31,976 nt of DNA, taken from a virus. The notes beneath the pieces were generated by a model, which worked only from the letters and a program-made list of their open reading frames with translations, did not search any database and was not told the DNA's origin. Made by a program: the position numbers and the translations under genes. Shown one piece after another: positions 3,256-22,730 of this stretch. The DNA is taken from UHGV virus genome UHGV-0322013, one strand, 5' to 3'. Position 1 is the first letter of the stretch, and the number at the start of each line of letters is the position of its first letter.

Positions 3256-3320
3256 GTTGGTTTTTCTCCACGGATTTACTGACAACCGAAGCCCTGACTG
3301 TTCCCGCAGTTGGGGCTTCA
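3250..3320 (+). ncRNA. Candidate sar-like antisense RNA covering the ant ribosome-binding site (arc-ant intercistronic region)
   Basis: Plus strand has a TATACT -10-like hexamer inside the ant 5' end, then sequence antisense to the ant RBS and a stem (GAAGCCC / GGGCTTC). By analogy to P22 sar; boundaries are approximate. Confidence 0.3.
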
Positions 3321-3323
3321 ACT

Positions 3324-13631: not shown

Positions 13632-14153
13632 ATGAGCATGGAACTGAATGAATACTTCGAATACCGCGATGGTTCTTTGGTTTGGAAAGCCAGAAGCTCT
13701 GAATTTTTCAACAACAAAAAGAATCGCAACTATCACAACGTTTGGAATGCAAAACACGCTGGGAAAGTTGCTGGTCTTTTAGAAAGCAATGGATATATCC
13801 GCATAAGAATTAACGGCATTAAGTGGCTAGCACACCGCATCGTATGGGTAATGTTTAACGGAGATATTCCAGAAGGCATGGAAATTGACCATATAAATGG
13901 GATTCGCCACGACAACAGAATTGAAAATCTTCGTCTTGTGAAAAAATCAGCAAACCAAAGGAATAGAATCAAACTATCTAAAAATAACTCCAGCGGAATA
14001 TCTGGAGTTTACTTTTGCAACACGCGGAAAAGATGGATCGCTCATAAGCGACTGCTTAATGCAAGAGTGCAAAAAGTATGTTCTTCATTCGAAGAGGCGA
14101 AAGAAGTAATCAGAAAGTTTGACGAGGAAAACAACATCACGATATCGAAATAA
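13632..14153 (+). CDS. Free-standing HNH homing endonuclease with AP2-type DNA-binding region
   Basis: 173-aa plus-strand ORF with the HNH core EIDHINGIRHDNRIENLRLV...NQRNR and a following SGISGVYF...KRWIA segment; AT-rich; paralogous to the ORF at 23275..23799. Confidence 0.85.
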   Translation: MSMELNEYFEYRDGSLVWKARSSEFFNNKKNRNYHNVWNAKHAGKVAGLLESNGYIRIRINGIKWLAHRIVWVMFNGDIPEGMEIDHINGIRHDNRIENLRLVKKSANQRNRIKLSKNNSSGISGVYFCNTRKRWIAHKRLLNARVQKVCSSFEEAKEVIRKFDEENNITISK

Positions 14154-15065
14154 TTATCGAATTCCTTTATTCAGTTGCGCCTTGAGCTTGCGGTATGTCT
14201 CTACATCCCCTTTGTTTGCTGCCGCTTCCATCTGCTTTTCAATCGCAGAAATATTTGCAGCAACAGCGTGTCCCTGAATGGGTTCATCAGGTAACGGGGC
14301 TTCTGAAACAGGCTTGGCTCGAGGCTTGAGAGTTAAACGTTCTGACAGTCGAGTGAGTTCAATCAGCGCGGATTGCCCGTCCATCGCCAGCAACTGGCGT
14401 GTTTTCTCAGGATTAGCACCAAGGTGATACATGAGAGCAGCGGATTTCTCCGGGAAGAGGCGCATGATGTCGGCACCGACTGCTGGCGGCACCAGTTGCA
14501 TGAATGCATCCTCTTTCTCCTGATAGTCAGGGATATTGAGCTTTTCCGCTGCGTCGTAGTGCTTACGGGCTGCCTCGACGTATTGCGCTGATTGCTGGGT
14601 GAACTCCTGAGTTTTGCGACCCTGCTCGGCGACAGCCTGGCTTCGTGCGTCCATAGCCTTGATCTGCCATTCACTGTTTGCCTGCTGGAAGGCAGCCAGT
14701 GCGCGGCTCTGGTCATAGTCGTACTTAGCCAGCGCATCTTCGGAAAGATAATCGTTAGGGTCTGGTTGTTTTGGTAACTCAGGGTTCACCCGCAGGTGCT
14801 CCGGCAACTCCCCACGCTTAACCGCTTCCATCTGCTGCTCAAGCTCACGCTGGCGTTTGCGTTCGATGCGGCGACGGGCAAATTCAGCATTAGTTGCCGG
14901 GTATTGTTTTGGTTTCTCATCGTCTTTCAGGACAATCTCGAAGCCTTCTTCCTGACCTGCGTTGTCGTTGGCATTATCGACAACTAAGCCATCAGCAGAT
15001 GCCGCTGCATGATTGCCGGGCAGGGTTAATTCTTCAGAAGCCTGAATGTCGGTGGTTTGGTCCAT
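14154..15065 (-). CDS. Scaffolding protein, P22 gp8-like
   Basis: 303 aa as in P22 gp8, with long near-identical stretches ([99 protein letters not shown]). Confidence 0.95.
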
Positions 15066-17244: not shown

Positions 17245-18744
17245 TTAAGTTCTCCGTGCGATGGGCCTGATTGGGGCTGGTATCTTTTTCTCTTTTGGTT
17301 TTTTGATGTCGCGCATCATTTTTGCGAAGCGGCGCATCATGTATGCATAGCGAACGGCTGAGAGAACGTCATCGTTAAGCTTGACGATCTTCCCGTTTTC
17401 ATCACGGTGATAGAGGCGGAACTCCTCAAAGAATGGCTCACAGGTGTTGAATACTTTGAAGCGTCCATCGAGCATCATGTCGCGCAATTCAGTGATGCCA
17501 GGCTCAACAGCATTACCGCCATCAGGCCATGTCGCATGCTCCTGTAACATCATAAATCCAGCGTCTGCATACTGCCCTTTGAGCTGCTCACCGCCACCCT
17601 TCTCGTGCTGGTTTCCGTCATGAGGCCATGCAGTTGGCACTTTATGCGCCCATGATTTAACGGCCCCCCACGCCTGAACGGCTGTTTTTTCTTTCGCCTT
17701 CCACACGCGTGAAACGTAGATTGTGTCTGCGTCCTTATCCCACCAAAGCTGAACCTGCGCCTGCGGGTGATCCCATCCGAAATCCATCCCGCCAATTACG
17801 TAGAAGTGATCAGGACACTCGAACGGCTGACACTTAATCGTCTCTTCCGGTATCTGGAAGATTCGACCACTACCCATCGTAGGAATACCGCGAGCACGCG
17901 CCTCTCTCTCATGCTCAGGATAGGATGCGATGATTTGCTCTTTCTGCTCGTCGGTGTAGTGCTCAGCGTCATAGATGGTCATGTTGACCACTTTCTGAGA
18001 CTTGCTGGGATTCTTCAGGAACTTGGTAACAACGTCAGACATCCCCATAAGCGGGGTAAACGTCAGAATTGAGAATTGCCCGTATTTGTTGGTACGGGTA
18101 AGACCTTCACCATAAATGCTGTATGGTGGCTCTTCGTCAAACCACACGCCGTGGATTGTGTCACCCTGCCAGCGAGCACGGCCTTGCGAGTATGGTTTGA
18201 AGTAGCAGATTGAAATGCCATCTTCAACGCCATCAGCCGTGTGATGCTTAACCAGAAGATGATCAACAAGGTTCGGAAAGAAAGGAGACTTCTTCCAGCT
18301 AATGATGTCTTCTTTCGGTATGGAACCGTAGCCTGGCTCGTCATTCTCTTCGATACGACCGCACAGGATGCGTTGAGTCGTTTTGGTTACCGTCTCGTTT
18401 GTCTCGCCGCCAATCCAGAAGACAACAGGCTCATAGAAACGCTTACCTTTCCACTCACCGCCATATTTACCATCAGCAGGATAGCCTTTTGTGCCCGGAT
18501 AACGCCCTGTAAGGTGAAACGCGACTTCGGCAGCACCGGTAAATGACTTACCAAGCTGGTTACCAGCCATAAAACAGCGCTCTGGATAGTCATGCCCGGC
18601 GTCGATGAACTCACGCTGTTTGCTGTATGGCGTAAATTCATATAGCAGGTGTGTGTTCCGGTAGTTCTCTTCTTCTTCGAGTAGCTCGAGCAACTCGATT
18701 TGCTCTTCGTCGCTCAGGTTATCAAGAATCGCGTCCAGTTCCAC
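17245..18744 (-). CDS. Terminase large subunit, P22 gp2-like
   Basis: 499 aa, same length as P22 gp2; position between the small terminase and portal genes. Confidence 0.9.
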
Positions 18745-19210
18745 GGTTGAATAGCTCCTTGATACGAGAGCGTCGCTTATCGCGATCTCCCTTATCAGGT
18801 GTCACGTCTTCAACTTGCGACTGCTCTTTGAGGCCCAAATCACGGGCGATGATGTTAGCGTTGAGAAGGTCAGCGGCTGCGCCAGAAAATTTCTGGTCGT
18901 AGATGATGTCTTCCGCTCGTGATGTGACGTCAGAAAAACCTTCCATTGACCGGAAGGTTCCCCACGTTTGCCTGGTGATATCAAGGAAGGTACACAATCC
19001 TGAAATAGTCATGGCTCGCATCTTAGGGACATTAGCCTTAATTATTTCTCCCTGATATGAAAATACCTTACCCTCCCATAGTGGGTTATCATCAGCCCAC
19101 TCGAAGTATTCACAACAAGCTGCCCACAGCGCCTCAGGCGATTCGAATTTAGGATTTCGCCCATGACTACTGCGGGCCTCCCAAAATCGGTTGCCCTTTG
19201 GTGCTGCCAT
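18722..19210 (-). CDS. Terminase small subunit, P22 gp3-like
   Basis: 162 aa, same length as P22 gp3; N-terminus [46 protein letters not shown] matches as recalled. Confidence 0.9.
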
Positions 19211-19215
19211 ATTGA

Positions 19216-19305
19216 TTATTTCCCTTCTGCTTGCTTATCCCATTCATCGCGGAATTTGGATGGGTTGTCGAAGCCCTGAGAGCCTGAACAAACTTTGATT
19301 ACCAT
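19216..19305 (-). CDS. Possible 29-aa micro-ORF coupled between orf64 and the small terminase gene
   Basis: Hand-translated [29 protein letters not shown]; its ATG overlaps the orf64 stop (TAATG) and AAGGAG sits 8 nt upstream. Not in the ORF track; coordinates approximate. Confidence 0.25.
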
Positions 19306-19499
19306 TACTTAGCTCCTTTCTGCTTGCCTGTGTTTGATGTCGTTTCAGCAGCAGCCCCAGAGCAATTAACGCTACCCGCAACACCATATCCATAACCAGT
19401 CTTGAAGAAATTGTTGCCAGTAAATTGGTTAACAATCTTCCCGCAGCACGGGCAGCGTTGGCATTGGCAATAAGGGGATTGATTATTCCAGTGATACAT
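19305..19499 (-). CDS. Small cysteine-rich hypothetical protein (possible zinc ribbon)
   Basis: Internal start of track ORF 19305..19574 with RBS GGAGAAACAAG-ATG: MYHWNNQSPYCQCQRCPCCGKIVNQF... (64 aa, CxC...CxxC). Confidence 0.5.
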   Translation of the reverse strand: MYHWNNQSPYCQCQRCPCCGKIVNQFTGNNFFKTGYGYGVAGSVNCSGAAAETTSNTGKQKGAK

Positions 19500-19872
19500 C
19501 TTGTTTCTCCTGAATGAATGGCAGGAAGTGATTAACCATCCTGTCCAGCATGTAACAGTACGTCTCGTTGGCATCTTCAGGCCTTGTCGTCACGCCGACA
19601 TCAGAGCAAACGTAAAAGCAGACGTGGGCGCACTCATGAACGAGCGTAGCGATCTGCTGATCGAATACTCCAATCAGATAGCATCGCTCACCCGTATCAG
19701 TGTTTTCATAGTTGCTTGCAAACCCAAGATTGAATGGCTTCTCATCCCCGCTGCCGCCAAGGAATTTATCAGCGTGCTGAAACTGTTCTCTGGTTGTTGC
19801 GAGGTAGACATGTGCACTTTGAAACAGCGGAATGGTGAACGCCGGGAGTTTGTGCCATTTGGCCTTAGCCAT
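19483..19872 (-). CDS. Hypothetical protein with an HExxH motif (possible minimal zinc metallopeptidase)
   Basis: 129 aa; motif LVHECAHVCF; GGAGTG RBS 5 nt upstream; same orientation as the late operon. An equal-length antisense ORF exists but lacks these features. Confidence 0.6.
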   Translation of the reverse strand: MAKAKWHKLPAFTIPLFQSAHVYLATTREQFQHADKFLGGSGDEKPFNLGFASNYENTDTGERCYLIGVFDQQIATLVHECAHVCFYVCSDVGVTTRPEDANETYCYMLDRMVNHFLPFIQEKQDVSLE

Positions 19873-19873
19873 A

Positions 19874-20116
19874 TCACACTCCAGCGGTGAACAGGTCTAA
19901 CGCTTCCTTCGACTTACGCACCGCTTCGATAGTGCGGGTCGTGATATCCGAATTAGCGCCGCCTGACTGGAAGTGAATTTTGAATAGCTCAAGCTTCAGT
20001 TCGTCAGTGCCAATGAACTGAAATGCTTCTTCTGCGGCTGCGTTCTGGTTCATGACCAGCTTGTAAATCTCTAACTGGAATTTCTGTTCTTCAGTCATGG
20101 GAATAATCTCTGCCAT
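19874..20116 (-). CDS. Hypothetical protein (80 aa)
   Basis: Track ORF with GGAG RBS 6 nt upstream of ATG; its stop abuts the orf129 start. Confidence 0.55.
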   Translation of the reverse strand: MAEIIPMTEEQKFQLEIYKLVMNQNAAAEEAFQFIGTDELKLELFKIHFQSGGANSDITTRTIEAVRKSKEALDLFTAGV

Positions 20117-20216
20117 TGTTGGCTCCGTTTATCCGTTAAAAGGGATATCAGTTAAGTTATCCCGTGTAGGGTATAAGCCATTATCAAGCCCACCCGTAGA
20201 TAGGCTTTGTAATGAC

Positions 20217-20405
20217 TTACCCCAGCTTTGCTCGCACCAGTGCATCTTTAGCTTCGAGCAGCTTGCGGAGACCTGCTGACTTTTCAGCACTGTCAGGCAG
20301 TGATTCATCCATCAGTGTCGCAAGGTCACCGATTGGCTTACTTACTTCCTGCAGATGCGCGGGGAGGTGTTGATAAGCGAAATACTTCATGATTGGAGAT
20401 GACAT
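20217..20405 (-). CDS. Hypothetical protein (62 aa)
   Basis: Track ORF with RBS GAGGG upstream of ATG, first gene after the post-Rz terminator. Confidence 0.5.
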   Translation of the reverse strand: MSSPIMKYFAYQHLPAHLQEVSKPIGDLATLMDESLPDSAEKSAGLRKLLEAKDALVRAKLG

Positions 20406-20422
20406 TATTTACCCTCGGTTAG

Positions 20423-20447
20423 TAAAAAGCCTCGCTATTACGAGGCT
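20423..20447 (-). terminator. Rho-independent terminator downstream of Rz
   Basis: Minus strand AGCCTCG-TAATAG-CGAGGCT followed by TTTTT. Confidence 0.55.
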
Positions 20448-20455
20448 ATGATTGT

Positions 20456-20893
20456 TCATTTCAGGCACTGCGTGTTGATATATTCCTGCAGGTAGTTAAC
20501 CTGCGCGGTTATCTTGTCGATTCCACTTCGGAGACGGTAATAATTGAGTTCAGCATCTGCTGTAAGTCCTGGGCTTTCTCCATCGCCCATGCCGCTGGCT
20601 CCGGTCGTTGACTTTGCACAGGTGGCGGCGACTTGCAGGCGCTTACGCCCAGCAGAAACATCAGCACGGAGACTTTCAATAGTCGCGTTAGCATCAGCAA
20701 GCTCCTTTGTGTATCTGGCGTCAAGTTCTGCTACATCACGTTGACGCTTCTGCATGTCAGCGATTGTGGATGTGGCCTTATCGCGCTGTTCTTTATAGGC
20801 GATGGCGTTATCACGGTAATGATTAACAGCCCATGACAGGCAAACGATGATGCAGATAACCAGAGCGGAGATAATCGCGGTTACTCTGCTCAT
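20456..20893 (-). CDS. Rz: Spanin inner-membrane subunit Rz (lambda-like N-terminal half, divergent C-terminal half)
   Basis: [31 protein letters not shown] matches lambda Rz as recalled; the rest diverges; 145 aa. Confidence 0.9.
20509..20694 (-). CDS. Rz1: Spanin outer-membrane lipoprotein subunit Rz1, embedded in the +1 frame of Rz
   Basis: Internal start of track ORF 20509..20724: [20 protein letters not shown]... with lipobox and proline-rich segment, as in lambda Rz1. Confidence 0.75.
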
Positions 20894-21366
20894 ACCTCAA
20901 TCTCTCTGACCGCTCCGCCAGCCTCTTTGAATTTTGCAATCAGGCTGTCAGCCTTATGCTCGAACTGGCCATAACCAGCACCCGGCAGTGAAGCCCAGAT
21001 ATTGCTACAACGGTCGATAGCCTGACGGATATCACCGCGATCAATCATCGGCAAAGCGCCACGTTCCTTAATCTGCTGCAGCGCAACAGCGTCCTGGCTT
21101 TTGGGAGAGAAGTCTTTCAGGCCAAGCTGCTTACGATAGGCATCCCACCAACGGGAAAGAAGCTGGTAACGTCCGGCTGCTGTTGATTTGAGCTTTGGGT
21201 TTAGCGTGACAAGTTTGCGAGGGTGATCGGAGTAATCAGTGAATAGCTCTCCGCCTACAATGACGTCATAACCATGATTTCTGGTTTTCTGACGTCCGTT
21301 ATCAGTTCCCTCCGACCACGCCAGCATATCGAGGAACGCCTTACGTTGATTATTGATTTCCACCAT
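20890..21366 (-). CDS. R: Endolysin R (lytic transglycosylase), lambda R
   Basis: 158 aa, [49 protein letters not shown]... essentially identical to lambda R as recalled. Confidence 0.95.
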
Positions 21367-22106: not shown

Positions 22107-22730
22107 CTAACGTGTGACCGCATTCAAAATGTTGTCTGCGATTGACTCTTCTTTGTGGCATTGCACCACCAGAGCGTCATACAGCGGCTTAACAGTGCGT
22201 GACCAGGTGGGTTGGGTAAGGTTTGGGATTAGCATCGTTACAGCGCGATATGCGGCGCTTGCTGGCATCCTGGAATAGCCGACGCCTTTGCATCTTCCGC
22301 ACTCTTTCTCGACAACTCTCCCCCACTGCTCTGTTTTGGCAATATCAACCGCACGGCCTGTACCGTGGCAATCTCTGCATCTTGCGCCCGGCGTCGCGGC
22401 ACTACGGCAATAATCCGCATAAGCGAATGTTGCGAGCACTTGCAGTACCTTTGCCTTAGTATTTCCTTCAAGTTTTGCAACGCCACGGTATTTCCCCGAT
22501 ACCTTGTGTGCAAATTGCATCAGATAGTTGATAGCCTTTTGTTTGTCGTTCTGGCTGAGCTCATGCTTACCGCAGAATGCAGCCATTCCGAATCCGGCTT
22601 GTGATTGCGCCATCCCCATAGCAGCCATCACATCAGTACCGGAAAGAGAGTCAGAAGCCGTAGCCCGTGGTGAGTCGCTCATCATCGGGCTTTTTGGCGA
22701 ATGAAATTTAGCTACGCTTTCGAGTCTCAT
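22107..22730 (-). CDS. Q: Late antiterminator Q (lambda Q)
   Basis: 207 aa beginning MRLESVAKFHSPKSPMMSDSPRATASDSLSGTDVMAAMGMAQSQAGFGMAAFCG, essentially identical to lambda Q as recalled; zinc-binding CRDCHGTG...CGRCKGVG. Confidence 0.95.
   Translation of the reverse strand: MRLESVAKFHSPKSPMMSDSPRATASDSLSGTDVMAAMGMAQSQAGFGMAAFCGKHELSQNDKQKAINYLMQFAHKVSGKYRGVAKLEGNTKAKVLQVLATFAYADYCRSAATPGARCRDCHGTGRAVDIAKTEQWGRVVEKECGRCKGVGYSRMPASAAYRAVTMLIPNLTQPTWSRTVKPLYDALVVQCHKEESIADNILNAVTR

What the first reader, a model, noticed from the sequence alone, without database searches (positions are those of the whole stretch)
19216..20405. Cluster of four or five small uncharacterised genes, including an HExxH protein, between the lysis cassette and terminase
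After a terminator downstream of Rz and before the small terminase gene lie tightly packed minus-strand ORFs of 62, 80, 129, 64 and possibly 29 aa, each with a recognisable RBS and overlapping or abutting stops and starts. The 129-aa protein carries HECAH, which could be a minimal zinc-metallopeptidase site; the 64-aa protein is Cys-rich. I recognise none of them. This position is a variable accessory slot in P22-like phages, and small late-expressed proteins here are candidates for anti-defence or host-takeover functions.
Basis: partly seen in the sequence, partly recalled or inferred. Interest (0 to 1): 0.5.

Follow-up and report, generated by a model that had tools for sequence, protein, structure and literature searches.

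The report
Accessory gene island before phage terminase
Between the lysis genes and the DNA-packaging genes of this P22-like E. coli prophage lie five real small genes that are shuffled independently among phages; one belongs to a very large, unnamed phage family that keeps company with known immune-signal "sponge" proteins, and one is a miniature zinc-protease-like protein.

Summary
On the minus strand, after a terminator hairpin behind Rz (20447-20428), lie ORFs of 62, 80, 129, 64 and 29 aa, each with a Shine-Dalgarno sequence.

- **orf80** is P22 Orf80 (DUF2560), which is dispensable in P22.
- **orf129** is the Orf129 of phages L and ST64T. Across 72 relatives at 23-49% identity, the only invariant residues are G50, H79, E80, H83 and E103. 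That is HExxH plus a Glu 20 residues on, a gluzincin-type zinc site on a zincin-like predicted fold. No substrate is known.
- **orf62** is the most interesting gene.
  - It belongs to a cross-phylum phage family without a Pfam model: more than 8000 clusters, about 70% identity to a mycobacteriophage protein.
  - The domain occurs fused to Tad2 and to Sequestin.
  - In a related phage it follows Acb2 and Tad2 genes, and in sibling prophages an Acb4 gene sits at the corresponding place upstream of orf80.
  - A 2025 preprint picked family members as sponge candidates. None scored against the Thoeris I, Thoeris II, CBASS or Pycsar strains it was transformed into.
- **orf64 and orf29** show an excess of synonymous changes, so both are probably coding.

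Overall this is an ordinary mosaic late-operon accessory slot that often serves as an anti-defence island. All functions proposed here are inferred.

The parts
20428..20447 (-). Intrinsic-terminator-like hairpin just after Rz. It marks the upstream edge of the accessory slot and is presumably read through by Q-modified RNA polymerase.
   Evidence: 8-bp stem with 5 G-C pairs, a 4-nt loop and a TTTTT tail. The Q antiterminator gene is at 22107-22730 (PF03589, E 1e-57). No sigma-70-like promoter was found on the minus strand within 18700-21000.
20217..20405 (-). orf62: a 62-aa, three-helix protein of a very large cross-phylum phage family (phrog_1761/5120, no Pfam model). Candidate immune-signal sponge with an unknown ligand.
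   Evidence: PHROG hits at E 1e-33 and 2e-22. No Pfam, NCBIfam, PADLOC or PDB sequence hit. tblastn found 321 phage records, including Vibrio (81% identity), Acinetobacter (74%), Mycobacterium phage Phayonce (70%), Gordonia, Brevibacterium, an N4-like roseophage and Myxococcus Mx4. There are 2201 clusters at 90% identity with one query and at least 8000 with a profile. Invariant residues are F9 H13 L14 S22 E41 R47 L49 E51 K53 V57. Fusions exist to Tad2 (P0440) and to Sequestin PF21825. The gene neighbours Acb2, Tad2 and Acb4 genes.
19874..20116 (-). orf80: homologue of P22 Orf80 (DUF2560), helical, function unknown, dispensable in P22.
   Evidence: PF10834 at E 1e-43 and phrog_571. It is 97% identical to P22 orf80 at the DNA level. 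P22 deleted for orf25-orf80 gives viable phage (PMC11016777). [quoted passage not shown]
19483..19872 (-). orf129: stand-alone mini-zincin with an HExxH...E site (H79, E80, H83, E103). Homologue of Orf129 of phages L and ST64T. Probable zinc metallopeptidase with an unknown substrate.
   Evidence: phrog_1365 at E 5e-37. There are 871 representatives at 50% identity. Invariant residues are G50 H79 E80 H83 E103 in 72 sequences at 23-49% identity. The AF2 model has pLDDT 84.9 with strand-strand-helix-strand-strand, then helix 74-92 carrying HExxH and helix 103-127 starting at E103. BFVD gave 29 structural matches at E<=1e-3, three of the listed matches being named SprT-like or metalloprotease. 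A profile search against PDB sequences gave marginal matches, mostly zincins aligned at the motif (myroilysin E 0.016).
19305..19499 (-). orf64: Cys-rich 64-aa orphan (CxCxxCxCC, then GYGYG, then an Ala/Thr/Ser/Lys tail). Probably a real gene. It has only been seen directly behind an orf129-type gene.
   Evidence: The ORF is open at 64 codons in all 13 distinct variants, including two at 85-91% DNA identity. There are 16 synonymous against 20 non-synonymous changes versus 21% expected (P=0.001). The alternative frame is not conserved. It has no homologue in the phage records and no family hit. PGAP does not annotate it. It occurs in 18 of 5426 E. coli genomes.
19216..19305 (-). orf29: micro-ORF (23-31 aa in different phages) with the conserved core [16 protein letters not shown][A/T]EG, lying just upstream of the small terminase gene.
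   Evidence: The last 75 bp are 96-97% identical in about 200 E. coli genomes, upstream of different terminase types. The frame keeps an ATG, a Shine-Dalgarno sequence and a stop/start overlap behind three different upstream genes. There are 11 synonymous against 15 non-synonymous changes (P=0.006); in the core, 6 against 6 (P=0.01). It is not annotated in the records examined.
18722..19210 (-). Small terminase subunit (P22 gp3 type), the downstream edge of the slot.
   Evidence: PF16677 GP3_package at E 8e-31 and phrog_606.
20456..20893 (-). Rz i-spanin, the last gene of the lysis cassette.
   Evidence: PF03245 at E 2e-35 and phrog_13.

Best explanation
The stretch is the lysis-to-terminase accessory slot of a P22-like (Lederbergvirus-type) E. 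coli prophage.

**Expression (inferred).** It is transcribed late, as part of the Q-antiterminated late operon. That transcript should read through the hairpin behind Rz.

**Organisation (shown).** It holds five real small genes that are separate cassettes, exchanged independently among lambdoid and P22-like phages. In many relatives the same slot is an anti-defence island carrying the known signal sponges Acb4, Acb2 and Tad2.

**Proposed functions (all inferred).**
1. orf62 forms a small helical homo-oligomer that sequesters a host immune signalling nucleotide. That nucleotide would differ from the signals of the Thoeris I, Thoeris II, type I CBASS and Pycsar systems already screened. An equivalent activity that neutralises signalling immunity is also possible.
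2. orf129 is a zinc endopeptidase of the gluzincin type. H79, H83 and E103 would hold the metal and E80 would act as the general base. It would cut a host or phage protein late in infection.
3. orf80 (DUF2560), orf64 (Cys-rich) and orf29 (micro-ORF before the small terminase gene) are expressed accessory peptides. Their activity is unknown and they are not needed for basic growth.
For: **Slot and mosaicism.** Gene orders differ in P22, ST64T, E. coli, Klebsiella, Citrobacter and metagenomic prophages.

**Late-operon context.** Q, holin, Rz, terS, terL and the portal are identified. No minus-strand promoter-like site lies inside the cluster.

**Known sponges in the slot.**
- PF13876 (Acb4, as equated by Tal et al.) is present in L001, L004, L067, L121, L124 and L139.
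- PF24729 (Acb2) followed by PF11195 (Tad2), then the orf62 homologue, is present in L054.
- tblastn matches to the L054 Acb2 and Tad2-like proteins lie upstream of the zincin in L126, L129, L132 (Acb2) and in L123, L136 (Tad2-like).

**orf62.**
- It is fused to Tad2 and to Sequestin.
- Family members were chosen by an independent structure-based pipeline as predicted hexamers with positively charged pockets.
- It shows extreme cross-phylum conservation.

**orf129.**
- The HExxH+E signature is invariant.
- The confident model places the motif and E103 on two consecutive helices behind a beta sheet.
- The only named structural relatives among the viral matches listed are SprT-like proteins or metalloproteases.
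- Marginal profile matches in the PDB are mostly zincins aligned at the motif.

**orf64 and orf29.** Both show synonymous-change excess and ORF integrity.

**orf80.** It is non-essential in P22.
Against: - No function was measured here.
- The orf62-family members shown from Table S2 of Tal et al. gave no culture collapse with Thoeris I, Thoeris II, type I CBASS or Pycsar wherever transformation succeeded.
- orf62 matches no known sponge family by HMM or profile.
- My single-sequence model of orf62 is only moderate (pLDDT 68), and I could not model oligomers.
- orf129 is below the SprT-like gathering score (12.8 against 25.6 bits).
- I could not inspect the ligand geometry in the model.
- The zincin and DUF2560 keep their place next to the terminase even in phages without sponge genes, and in one distant phage. 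They may therefore be framework genes beside the island rather than part of it.
- Late expression is inferred from position only.
Confidence: 0.6

Rival explanations
1. Packaging or late-gene helpers rather than anti-defence. On this reading orf129, orf80 and the micro-ORF orf29 belong functionally with the terminase or head genes. They might process a packaging or head protein, or tune translation of the small terminase. The sponge genes would merely be inserted next to them.
For: The zincin sits between lysis genes and terS in ST64T/L, mEp021, and Klebsiella, Citrobacter and other prophages. In a distant metagenomic phage it lies three genes before the probable terminase and an SU10-type portal. 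orf29 abuts terS, and in L149 and L123 it overlaps the next gene's start by TAATG. Its 75 bp are conserved before several terminase types. Dec, a head decoration protein, also lives in this slot.
Against: P22 packages DNA without orf129, orf64 or orf29 at this site. P22 lacking orf25-orf80 is viable. Many prophages with the same terminase lack the zincin: 16 of 5426 E. coli genomes have most of the cluster, while 2549 match some part of it. One distant homologue sits next to a thymidylate synthase gene instead. P22's own paralogue lies in immI.
Confidence: 0.2
2. orf62 is not a signal sponge. It would instead bind a universally conserved host macromolecule (for example a component of transcription, translation or proteolysis), or act as a small regulator or antitoxin-like protein.
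For: It was negative in every signalling-defence screen in which it could be tested. About 70% identity between proteobacterial and actinobacterial phages would also fit a target that is nearly identical in all bacteria. Its genomic contexts are very diverse: early regions of T4-like and N4-like phages, behind a holin, between head genes.
Against: The domain is repeatedly fused to two different sponge domains, Tad2 and Sequestin. In Tad2-Sequestin fusions that position is filled by another sponge. It lies in an Acb2-Tad2-orf62 array. Family members were predicted to form hexamers with positively charged pockets.
Confidence: 0.3
3. The HExxH of orf129 serves a non-proteolytic role. Examples are a metal-dependent peptide-modifying enzyme acting on the adjacent Cys-rich orf64 (a RiPP-like pair), or a purely structural metal site.
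For: There is a weak NCBIfam hit to the aKG-HExxH-type peptide beta-hydroxylase domain (TIGR04267, E 0.0024). Every orf64 found lies directly behind an orf129-type gene with a 17-nt overlap. This holds even where that gene is only 63% identical.
Against: The TIGR04267 match covers only 30 residues around the motif and scores 17.9 bits against a cut-off of 40. Most orf129 homologues have no orf64 behind them. The invariant Glu 20 residues after the motif, on the next helix, is the gluzincin protease arrangement (the thermolysin spacing is from my own knowledge).
Confidence: 0.1
4. orf64 and orf29 are not genes. The 272 bases between orf129 and terS would then be a non-coding leader or a recombination linker that happens to hold open frames.
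For: PGAP annotates neither. There are no homologues or family hits. Among the closest variants, all seven changes in orf64 are non-synonymous. The 75-bp block is conserved at the DNA level across modules, as a boundary sequence would be.
Against: With the more divergent variants included, both frames show a significant excess of synonymous changes, while the overlapping alternative frame does not. Both keep a strong Shine-Dalgarno sequence and coupled stop/start codons in different contexts. orf64 keeps exactly 64 codons in 13 variants.
Confidence: 0.2

Closest known systems
Acb4 (Pfam PF13876, N4 gp49 / Sf6 gene 66 family), an anti-CBASS sponge
   Same: It occupies the corresponding place in the slot in sibling prophages (L001, L004, L121), upstream of the DUF2560 gene, and it directly precedes the orf62 homologue in L067. 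It is a small phage protein. In other phages Acb4 is fused to Sequestin, as the orf62 domain also is.
   Different: There is no sequence similarity to orf62 (BLASTP found nothing; no Pfam hit). Acb4 has a demonstrated ligand, whereas orf62 has none.
Sequestin (PF21825), Tad2 (PF11195) and Acb2 (PF24729) viral signal sponges
   Same: They are short phage proteins. Sequestin is helical and 60-80 aa long. The orf62 domain is found fused to Tad2 and to Sequestin, and it is encoded next to Acb2 and Tad2 genes. Family members were predicted to be homo-oligomers with positively charged pockets.
   Different: orf62 matches none of these models. A profile-profile comparison with Sequestin gives 0.4% probability. 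No anti-defence activity was seen in the published screen, which used Thoeris I, Thoeris II, CBASS and two Pycsar strains.
Orf129 of Salmonella phages L and ST64T (also epsilon34 gp70); SprT-like zincins and minimal gluzincins
   Same: It is about 60% identical to Orf129 and sits in the same position between the lysis genes and gene 3. It shares the HExxH helix preceded by a beta sheet. The third ligand, Glu, lies on the following helix as in gluzincins. Some structural relatives in BFVD are labelled SprT-like.
   Different: Orf129 itself has never been characterised. SprT, Spartan and Wss1 use a third His rather than a Glu (my own knowledge), and the Pfam SprT-like score is below threshold. 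No solved structure matches significantly.
P22 orf25-pid-orf80 moron locus
   Same: It has the same genomic place and shares orf80. That region is dispensable in P22, and it holds pid, a small ORFan gene that alters host gene expression.
   Different: The window has no rha, orf25, pid or orf59c. It carries orf62, orf129, orf64 and orf29 instead.

Membership tests
DUF2560 (PF10834) - orf80 | Match to the family HMM above the gathering score | tested here: met
   147.7 bits against a cut-off of 25, E 1e-43, full length.
Gluzincin-type zinc metallopeptidase - orf129 | HExxH motif conserved across the family | tested here: met
   H79, E80 and H83 are invariant in 34 close and 72 distant relatives.
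Gluzincin-type zinc metallopeptidase - orf129 | Third metal ligand is a Glu downstream, on the helix after the active-site helix | tested here: met
   E103 is invariant, lies 20 residues after H83, and is the first residue of predicted helix 103-127, which follows helix 74-92. The ligand geometry in the model could not be inspected.
Gluzincin-type zinc metallopeptidase - orf129 | Zinc binding and peptide-bond hydrolysis | not testable with these tools
   This needs purified protein, metal analysis, and E80A and H79A mutants.
Gluzincin-type zinc metallopeptidase - orf129 | Significant structural similarity to a solved zincin | tested here: not met
SprT-like family (PF10263) - orf129 | Match to the family HMM above the gathering score | tested here: not met
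   12.8 bits against 25.6, E 0.11. Only 3 of 72 relatives match at E<=0.01, the best at 4e-4.
aKG-HExxH peptide beta-hydroxylase (TIGR04267) - orf129 | Match to the domain model above its cut-off | tested here: not met
   17.9 bits against 40; only residues 75-104 align.
Sequestin (PF21825) - orf62 | Match to the family HMM or profile | tested here: not met
   No Pfam hit at E<=1. hhalign probability is 0.4%. In fusion proteins PF21825 matches only the C-terminal half, not the orf62-like half.
Tad2 (PF11195), Acb4 (PF13876), Acb2/Tad1 (PF24729) - orf62 | Match to the family HMM | tested here: not met
   No Pfam hit for orf62 or for its L054 homologue. No PDB sequence hit.
Viral signal sponge (operational traits listed by Tal et al. 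2025) | Short phage protein (often under 100 aa) of unknown function | tested here: met
   62 aa, phage and prophage encoded, with no annotated domain.
Viral signal sponge (operational traits listed by Tal et al. 2025) | Homo-oligomer with positively charged pockets between protomers | not tested
   No oligomer modelling tool was available. Table S2 of the preprint lists family members at 45-62% identity to orf62 as predicted hexamers.
Viral signal sponge (operational traits listed by Tal et al. 2025) | Binds and sequesters an immune signalling molecule, cancelling defence | not testable with these tools
   In the published screen, the family members shown caused no culture collapse with Thoeris I, Thoeris II, type I CBASS or Pycsar wherever transformation succeeded. 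Other signals were not tested.

The most novel reading that the evidence does not exclude
orf62 represents a very large, still unnamed family of phage immune antagonists. It has at least 8000 sequence clusters, from coliphages to mycobacteriophages. It would most likely be a sponge for a signalling molecule outside those screened so far. Candidates are cyclic trinucleotides, cyclic oligoadenylates of type III CRISPR, N7-cADPR or other CBASS products. In addition, the mini-zincin orf129, a frequent resident of the same island, would be a protease that destroys a host defence protein.
Probability: 0.3. Interest if true: 0.75.

Novelty: new member of a known kind. Interest (0 to 1): 0.5.

Why it matters
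The cluster itself is an ordinary mosaic accessory slot. Its value lies in two protein families that are abundant in phages and have no known function.

**orf62.** This family is unusually conserved across bacterial phyla and has no Pfam model. Several lines of evidence tie it to known signal sponges: fusion to Tad2, fusion to Sequestin, a gene array Acb2-Tad2-orf62, adjacency to Acb4 in one phage, and Acb4 at the corresponding position in sibling prophages. It failed the published screen, so it is an "orphan sponge candidate". Finding its ligand or target could reveal either a new sponge specificity or a defence signal not yet covered by known inhibitors.

**orf129.** This family is a roughly 120-aa stand-alone zincin present in hundreds of phage lineages. 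It could be a convenient minimal model protease. If it cuts a host protein, it would be a new kind of phage counter-measure.

**orf64 and orf29.** These results show that current annotation misses conserved micro-genes directly upstream of the terminase genes in many E. coli prophages.

Tried and rejected
1. **orf62 as Acb2/Vs.4.** I suspected this from memory. There is no PDB sequence hit and no PF24729 hit, so I rejected it.
2. **orf62 as the C-terminal half of the Gp49/Acb4 protein found at the corresponding place.** BLASTP found no alignment. Rejected.
3. **orf62 as TadIV-1 (T4 Vs.3).** That family is confined to Straboviridae and is about 92 aa long. Rejected.
4. **orf62 as Bes1/Bes2 of N4-like phages.** Nothing in that paper connects them.
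5. **An alternative 63-aa hydrophobic frame (19244-19435) as the real gene instead of orf64.** Three near-identical sequences suggested this. It was rejected once more divergent variants were added: that frame gets Leu-to-Pro changes and breaks, with no synonymous excess.
7. **A mistake on my part.** The model is only moderate (pLDDT 68) and I did not use it for fold search.
8. **Literature searches.** Searches for the PHROG numbers, DUF2560 and phage HExxH anti-defence proteases gave nothing useful.
9. **PADLOC.** No hits for any of the five proteins.
10. **Rfam and tRNA scans.** Nothing was found inside the cluster.
11. **Context of distant orf129 relatives.** Three of four look-ups returned contigs too short to be informative.
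Full report
**1. What is there.**
The window is a P22-like prophage read on the minus strand. The gene order is:
- Q antiterminator (22107-22730, PF03589);
- lambda-S-type holin (PF05106);
- an ORF in the endolysin position (20890-21366) with no Pfam hit;
- Rz (PF03245);
- the cluster;
- P22-type small terminase (PF16677);
- large terminase and P22 portal.

Each is preceded by a Shine-Dalgarno sequence 6-7 nt upstream, and the stops and starts are tightly packed or overlap (read). A terminator-like hairpin follows Rz at 20447-20428. No promoter-like site lies on the minus strand inside the cluster. Expression from the Q-dependent late transcript is therefore the simplest reading, but it is inferred.

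**2. The slot is mosaic.**
No phage record covers 80% of the 1.4-kb stretch; hits cover only orf80 and the terminase end. Only 16 of 5426 complete E. coli genomes carry most of the cluster, and those lack orf62. In contrast, 2549 genomes match some part of it.

Gene orders in relatives differ widely:
- P22: Rz, rha, orf25, orf80, orf59c, gene 3.
- ST64T: gene 15, Orf-118 (DUF2560), Orf-129, Orf-134 (Dec decoration family), gene 3.
- Stx-type prophage: Rha, Gp49 family, DUF2560, then a different terminase.

Maps of 88 orf62 loci and 40 orf129 loci show each gene appearing with or without the others.

**3. orf80.**
This is P22 Orf80, Pfam DUF2560 (E 1e-43). P22 deleted for orf25-orf80 yields viable phage (PMC11016777). 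[quoted passage not shown] Its function remains unknown. It is often, but not always, adjacent to the zincin, in either order.

**4. orf129.**
- *Homologues.* It is about 60% identical to Orf129 of phages L, ST64T, ST104, SE1 and epsilon34 gp70. It belongs to phrog_1365. A profile search of 1.84 billion representatives found 871 relatives, nearly all stand-alone proteins of about 120 aa.
- *Conserved site.* In 72 of them, at 23-49% identity to the query, the only invariant columns are G50, H79, E80, H83 and E103. D91 is invariant among close relatives but is not conserved more widely. The pattern is HExxH plus a Glu 20 residues after the second His. From my own knowledge, this is the spacing in thermolysin (H142, H146, E166).
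- *Predicted fold.* The AlphaFold2 model is confident (pLDDT 84.9, pTM 0.80). It has two strands, a helix, two strands, a helix at 74-92 bearing HExxH, and a helix at 103-127 that begins at E103. From my own knowledge, this is the order of elements in the catalytic core of zincins.
- *Viral structural relatives.* Against predicted viral structures there are 29 matches at E<=1e-3. They come from Pseudomonas, Ralstonia, Achromobacter, Acinetobacter, Erwinia, crAss-like and other phages. The only named ones listed are 'SprT-like' or 'Metalloprotease'.
- *SprT-like family.* The Pfam SprT-like score is below threshold (3 of 72 relatives).
- *Conclusion.* I call it a probable mini-gluzincin and not a member of any curated family. 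The substrate is unknown.
- *Position.* Its place between the lysis genes and the terminase is kept in ST64T/L, mEp021, and Klebsiella, Citrobacter and other prophages. It is also kept in one distant metagenomic phage. This leaves room for a packaging-related role. However, P22 lacks it there, and one distant homologue lies next to a thymidylate synthase gene.

**5. orf62.**
- *Distribution.* This was the surprise. tblastn finds it in 321 phage records from very different hosts. These include Vibrio (81% identity), Erwinia jumbo phages (79%), Acinetobacter (74%), a T4-like Acinetobacter phage (72%) and Mycobacterium phage Phayonce (70%). Others are Gordonia, Brevibacterium, N4-like roseophages and Myxococcus Mx4. 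Genomic positions are unrelated: early regions, behind a holin, between head genes.
- *Database status.* There is no Pfam, NCBIfam, PADLOC or PDB sequence match.
- *Conservation and shape.* Ten positions are invariant in 41 diverse sequences. A single-sequence model gives three helices at moderate confidence.
- *Fusions.*
  - P0440 is this domain followed by a Tad2-like domain (PF11195, E 2e-23).
  - P0382 is a tandem duplicate of the domain.
  - P0433 adds a zinc ribbon.
- *Published screen.* The preprint of Tal et al. (10.1101/2025.07.12.664507) found new sponges by looking for domains fused to Tad2 (PF11195) and Acb4 (PF13876), and named PF21825 Sequestin.
  - Its Table S1 contains proteins whose N-terminal half is the orf62 domain (59-67% identical to orf62). 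I confirmed that PF21825 matches only their C-terminal half.
  - Its Table S2 lists 124 candidates chosen as short phage proteins predicted to form homo-oligomers with positively charged pockets. It includes at least four members of this family at 45-62% identity to orf62, predicted as hexamers.
  - None of the members shown caused culture collapse with Thoeris I, Thoeris II, type I CBASS or Pycsar, wherever transformation succeeded. For at least two, the cCMP Pycsar strain could not be transformed.
- *Neighbourhood.*
  - The 'Gp49 family' gene at the corresponding place in sibling prophages is PF13876, that is, Acb4.
  - In locus L054 the order after Rz is Acb2 (PF24729), Tad2-like, the orf62 homologue, Rha, DUF2560, the zincin, terS.
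  - In L067 Acb4 directly precedes the orf62 homologue.
  - Known sponge genes, or tblastn matches to them, also lie within about 1.2 kb upstream of the zincin in nine of the orf129 loci examined.
- *Not Sequestin.* orf62 is not a distant Sequestin (hhalign probability 0.4%).
- *Reading.* My best reading is a sponge-like antagonist whose ligand has not been tested. The main rival is a binder of a universally conserved host component.

**6. orf64 and orf29.**
The 272 bases between orf129 and terS occur in 18 E. coli genomes. They have no homologue in phage records in either frame.

Three near-identical sequences at first suggested that an overlapping hydrophobic frame was the real gene. Thirteen distinct variants, two of them 9-15% divergent, reversed that:
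- orf64 stays open at 64 codons in all of them. It has 16 synonymous and 20 non-synonymous changes against 21% synonymous expected (P=0.001).
- The alternative frame shows no excess (P=0.5) and takes Leu-to-Pro changes.

The last 75 bases, most of orf29, are 96-97% identical in about 200 E. coli genomes, in front of at least three terminase types. In each of three upstream contexts an ATG with a Shine-Dalgarno sequence opens the same frame, giving 23-31 aa with the core [16 protein letters not shown][A/T]EG. The changes are enriched for synonymous ones (P=0.006; core P=0.01). The numbers are small and the events are not phylogenetically corrected, so I rate both ORFs as probable genes, not proven ones.

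**7. Verdict.**
- The slot is variable.
- The HExxH motif is real and conserved.
- An anti-defence role is plausible by association for orf62, but nothing is demonstrated.
- Two of the 'unrecognised' genes are known named ORFs of unknown function.

The cluster is a new combination of known kinds of cassettes. The open questions it points to are the ligand or target of the orf62 family and the substrate of the phage mini-zincin.

Noticed in passing
L152/L097 (P22 BK000583, about 13861-14226, + strand): P22 carries an unannotated 121-aa ORF between sieA and orf59a/mnt in the immI region. It is 35% identical to orf129, with HECAH and NETYCY intact. P22 therefore does have this zincin family, at another place on the late-transcribed strand.
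   Followed up: partly
window 3256-3323 (+): Rfam finds the sar antisense RNA (95.6 bits against a gathering score of 43), so the window carries a P22-type immI (ant/arc/mnt) region.
   Followed up: no
L054 3152-5731: A related phage has, after Rz: Acb2 (PF24729), a Tad2-like protein of 142 aa, the orf62 homologue, Rha, DUF2560, the zincin and terS. This is a compact array of two known sponges followed by the unknown orf62.
   Followed up: yes
window 19205-19280 (-); L004 and L005 1488-1575: The 75-bp block holding the micro-ORF is conserved at 96-97% in about 200 E. coli genomes, in front of P22-type, Sf6-type and PBSX-associated terminase genes. It is unannotated in the records examined. Both versions give a weak sub-threshold hit to Pfam DUF2740 (E 0.06-0.11).
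   Followed up: partly
L007 3374-3514; L108 2874-3014: In Klebsiella and Citrobacter prophages the zincin is followed by an overlapping 46-aa Lys-rich ORF (phrog_2423) instead of orf64.
   Followed up: no
L002 2890-3294 (ST64T Orf-134): The gene after Orf-129 in ST64T is a homologue of the head decoration protein family (phrog_3018, E 9e-59), so a structural gene also lives in this slot.
   Followed up: no
P0382, P0433 (proteins): The orf62 domain also occurs as a tandem duplicate in one protein and fused to a C-terminal zinc ribbon in another.
   Followed up: no
window 19501-19890 (+): A 129-aa TTG-started ORF lies antisense to orf129 over nearly its whole length. It is most likely a shadow ORF of the real gene.
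   Followed up: no
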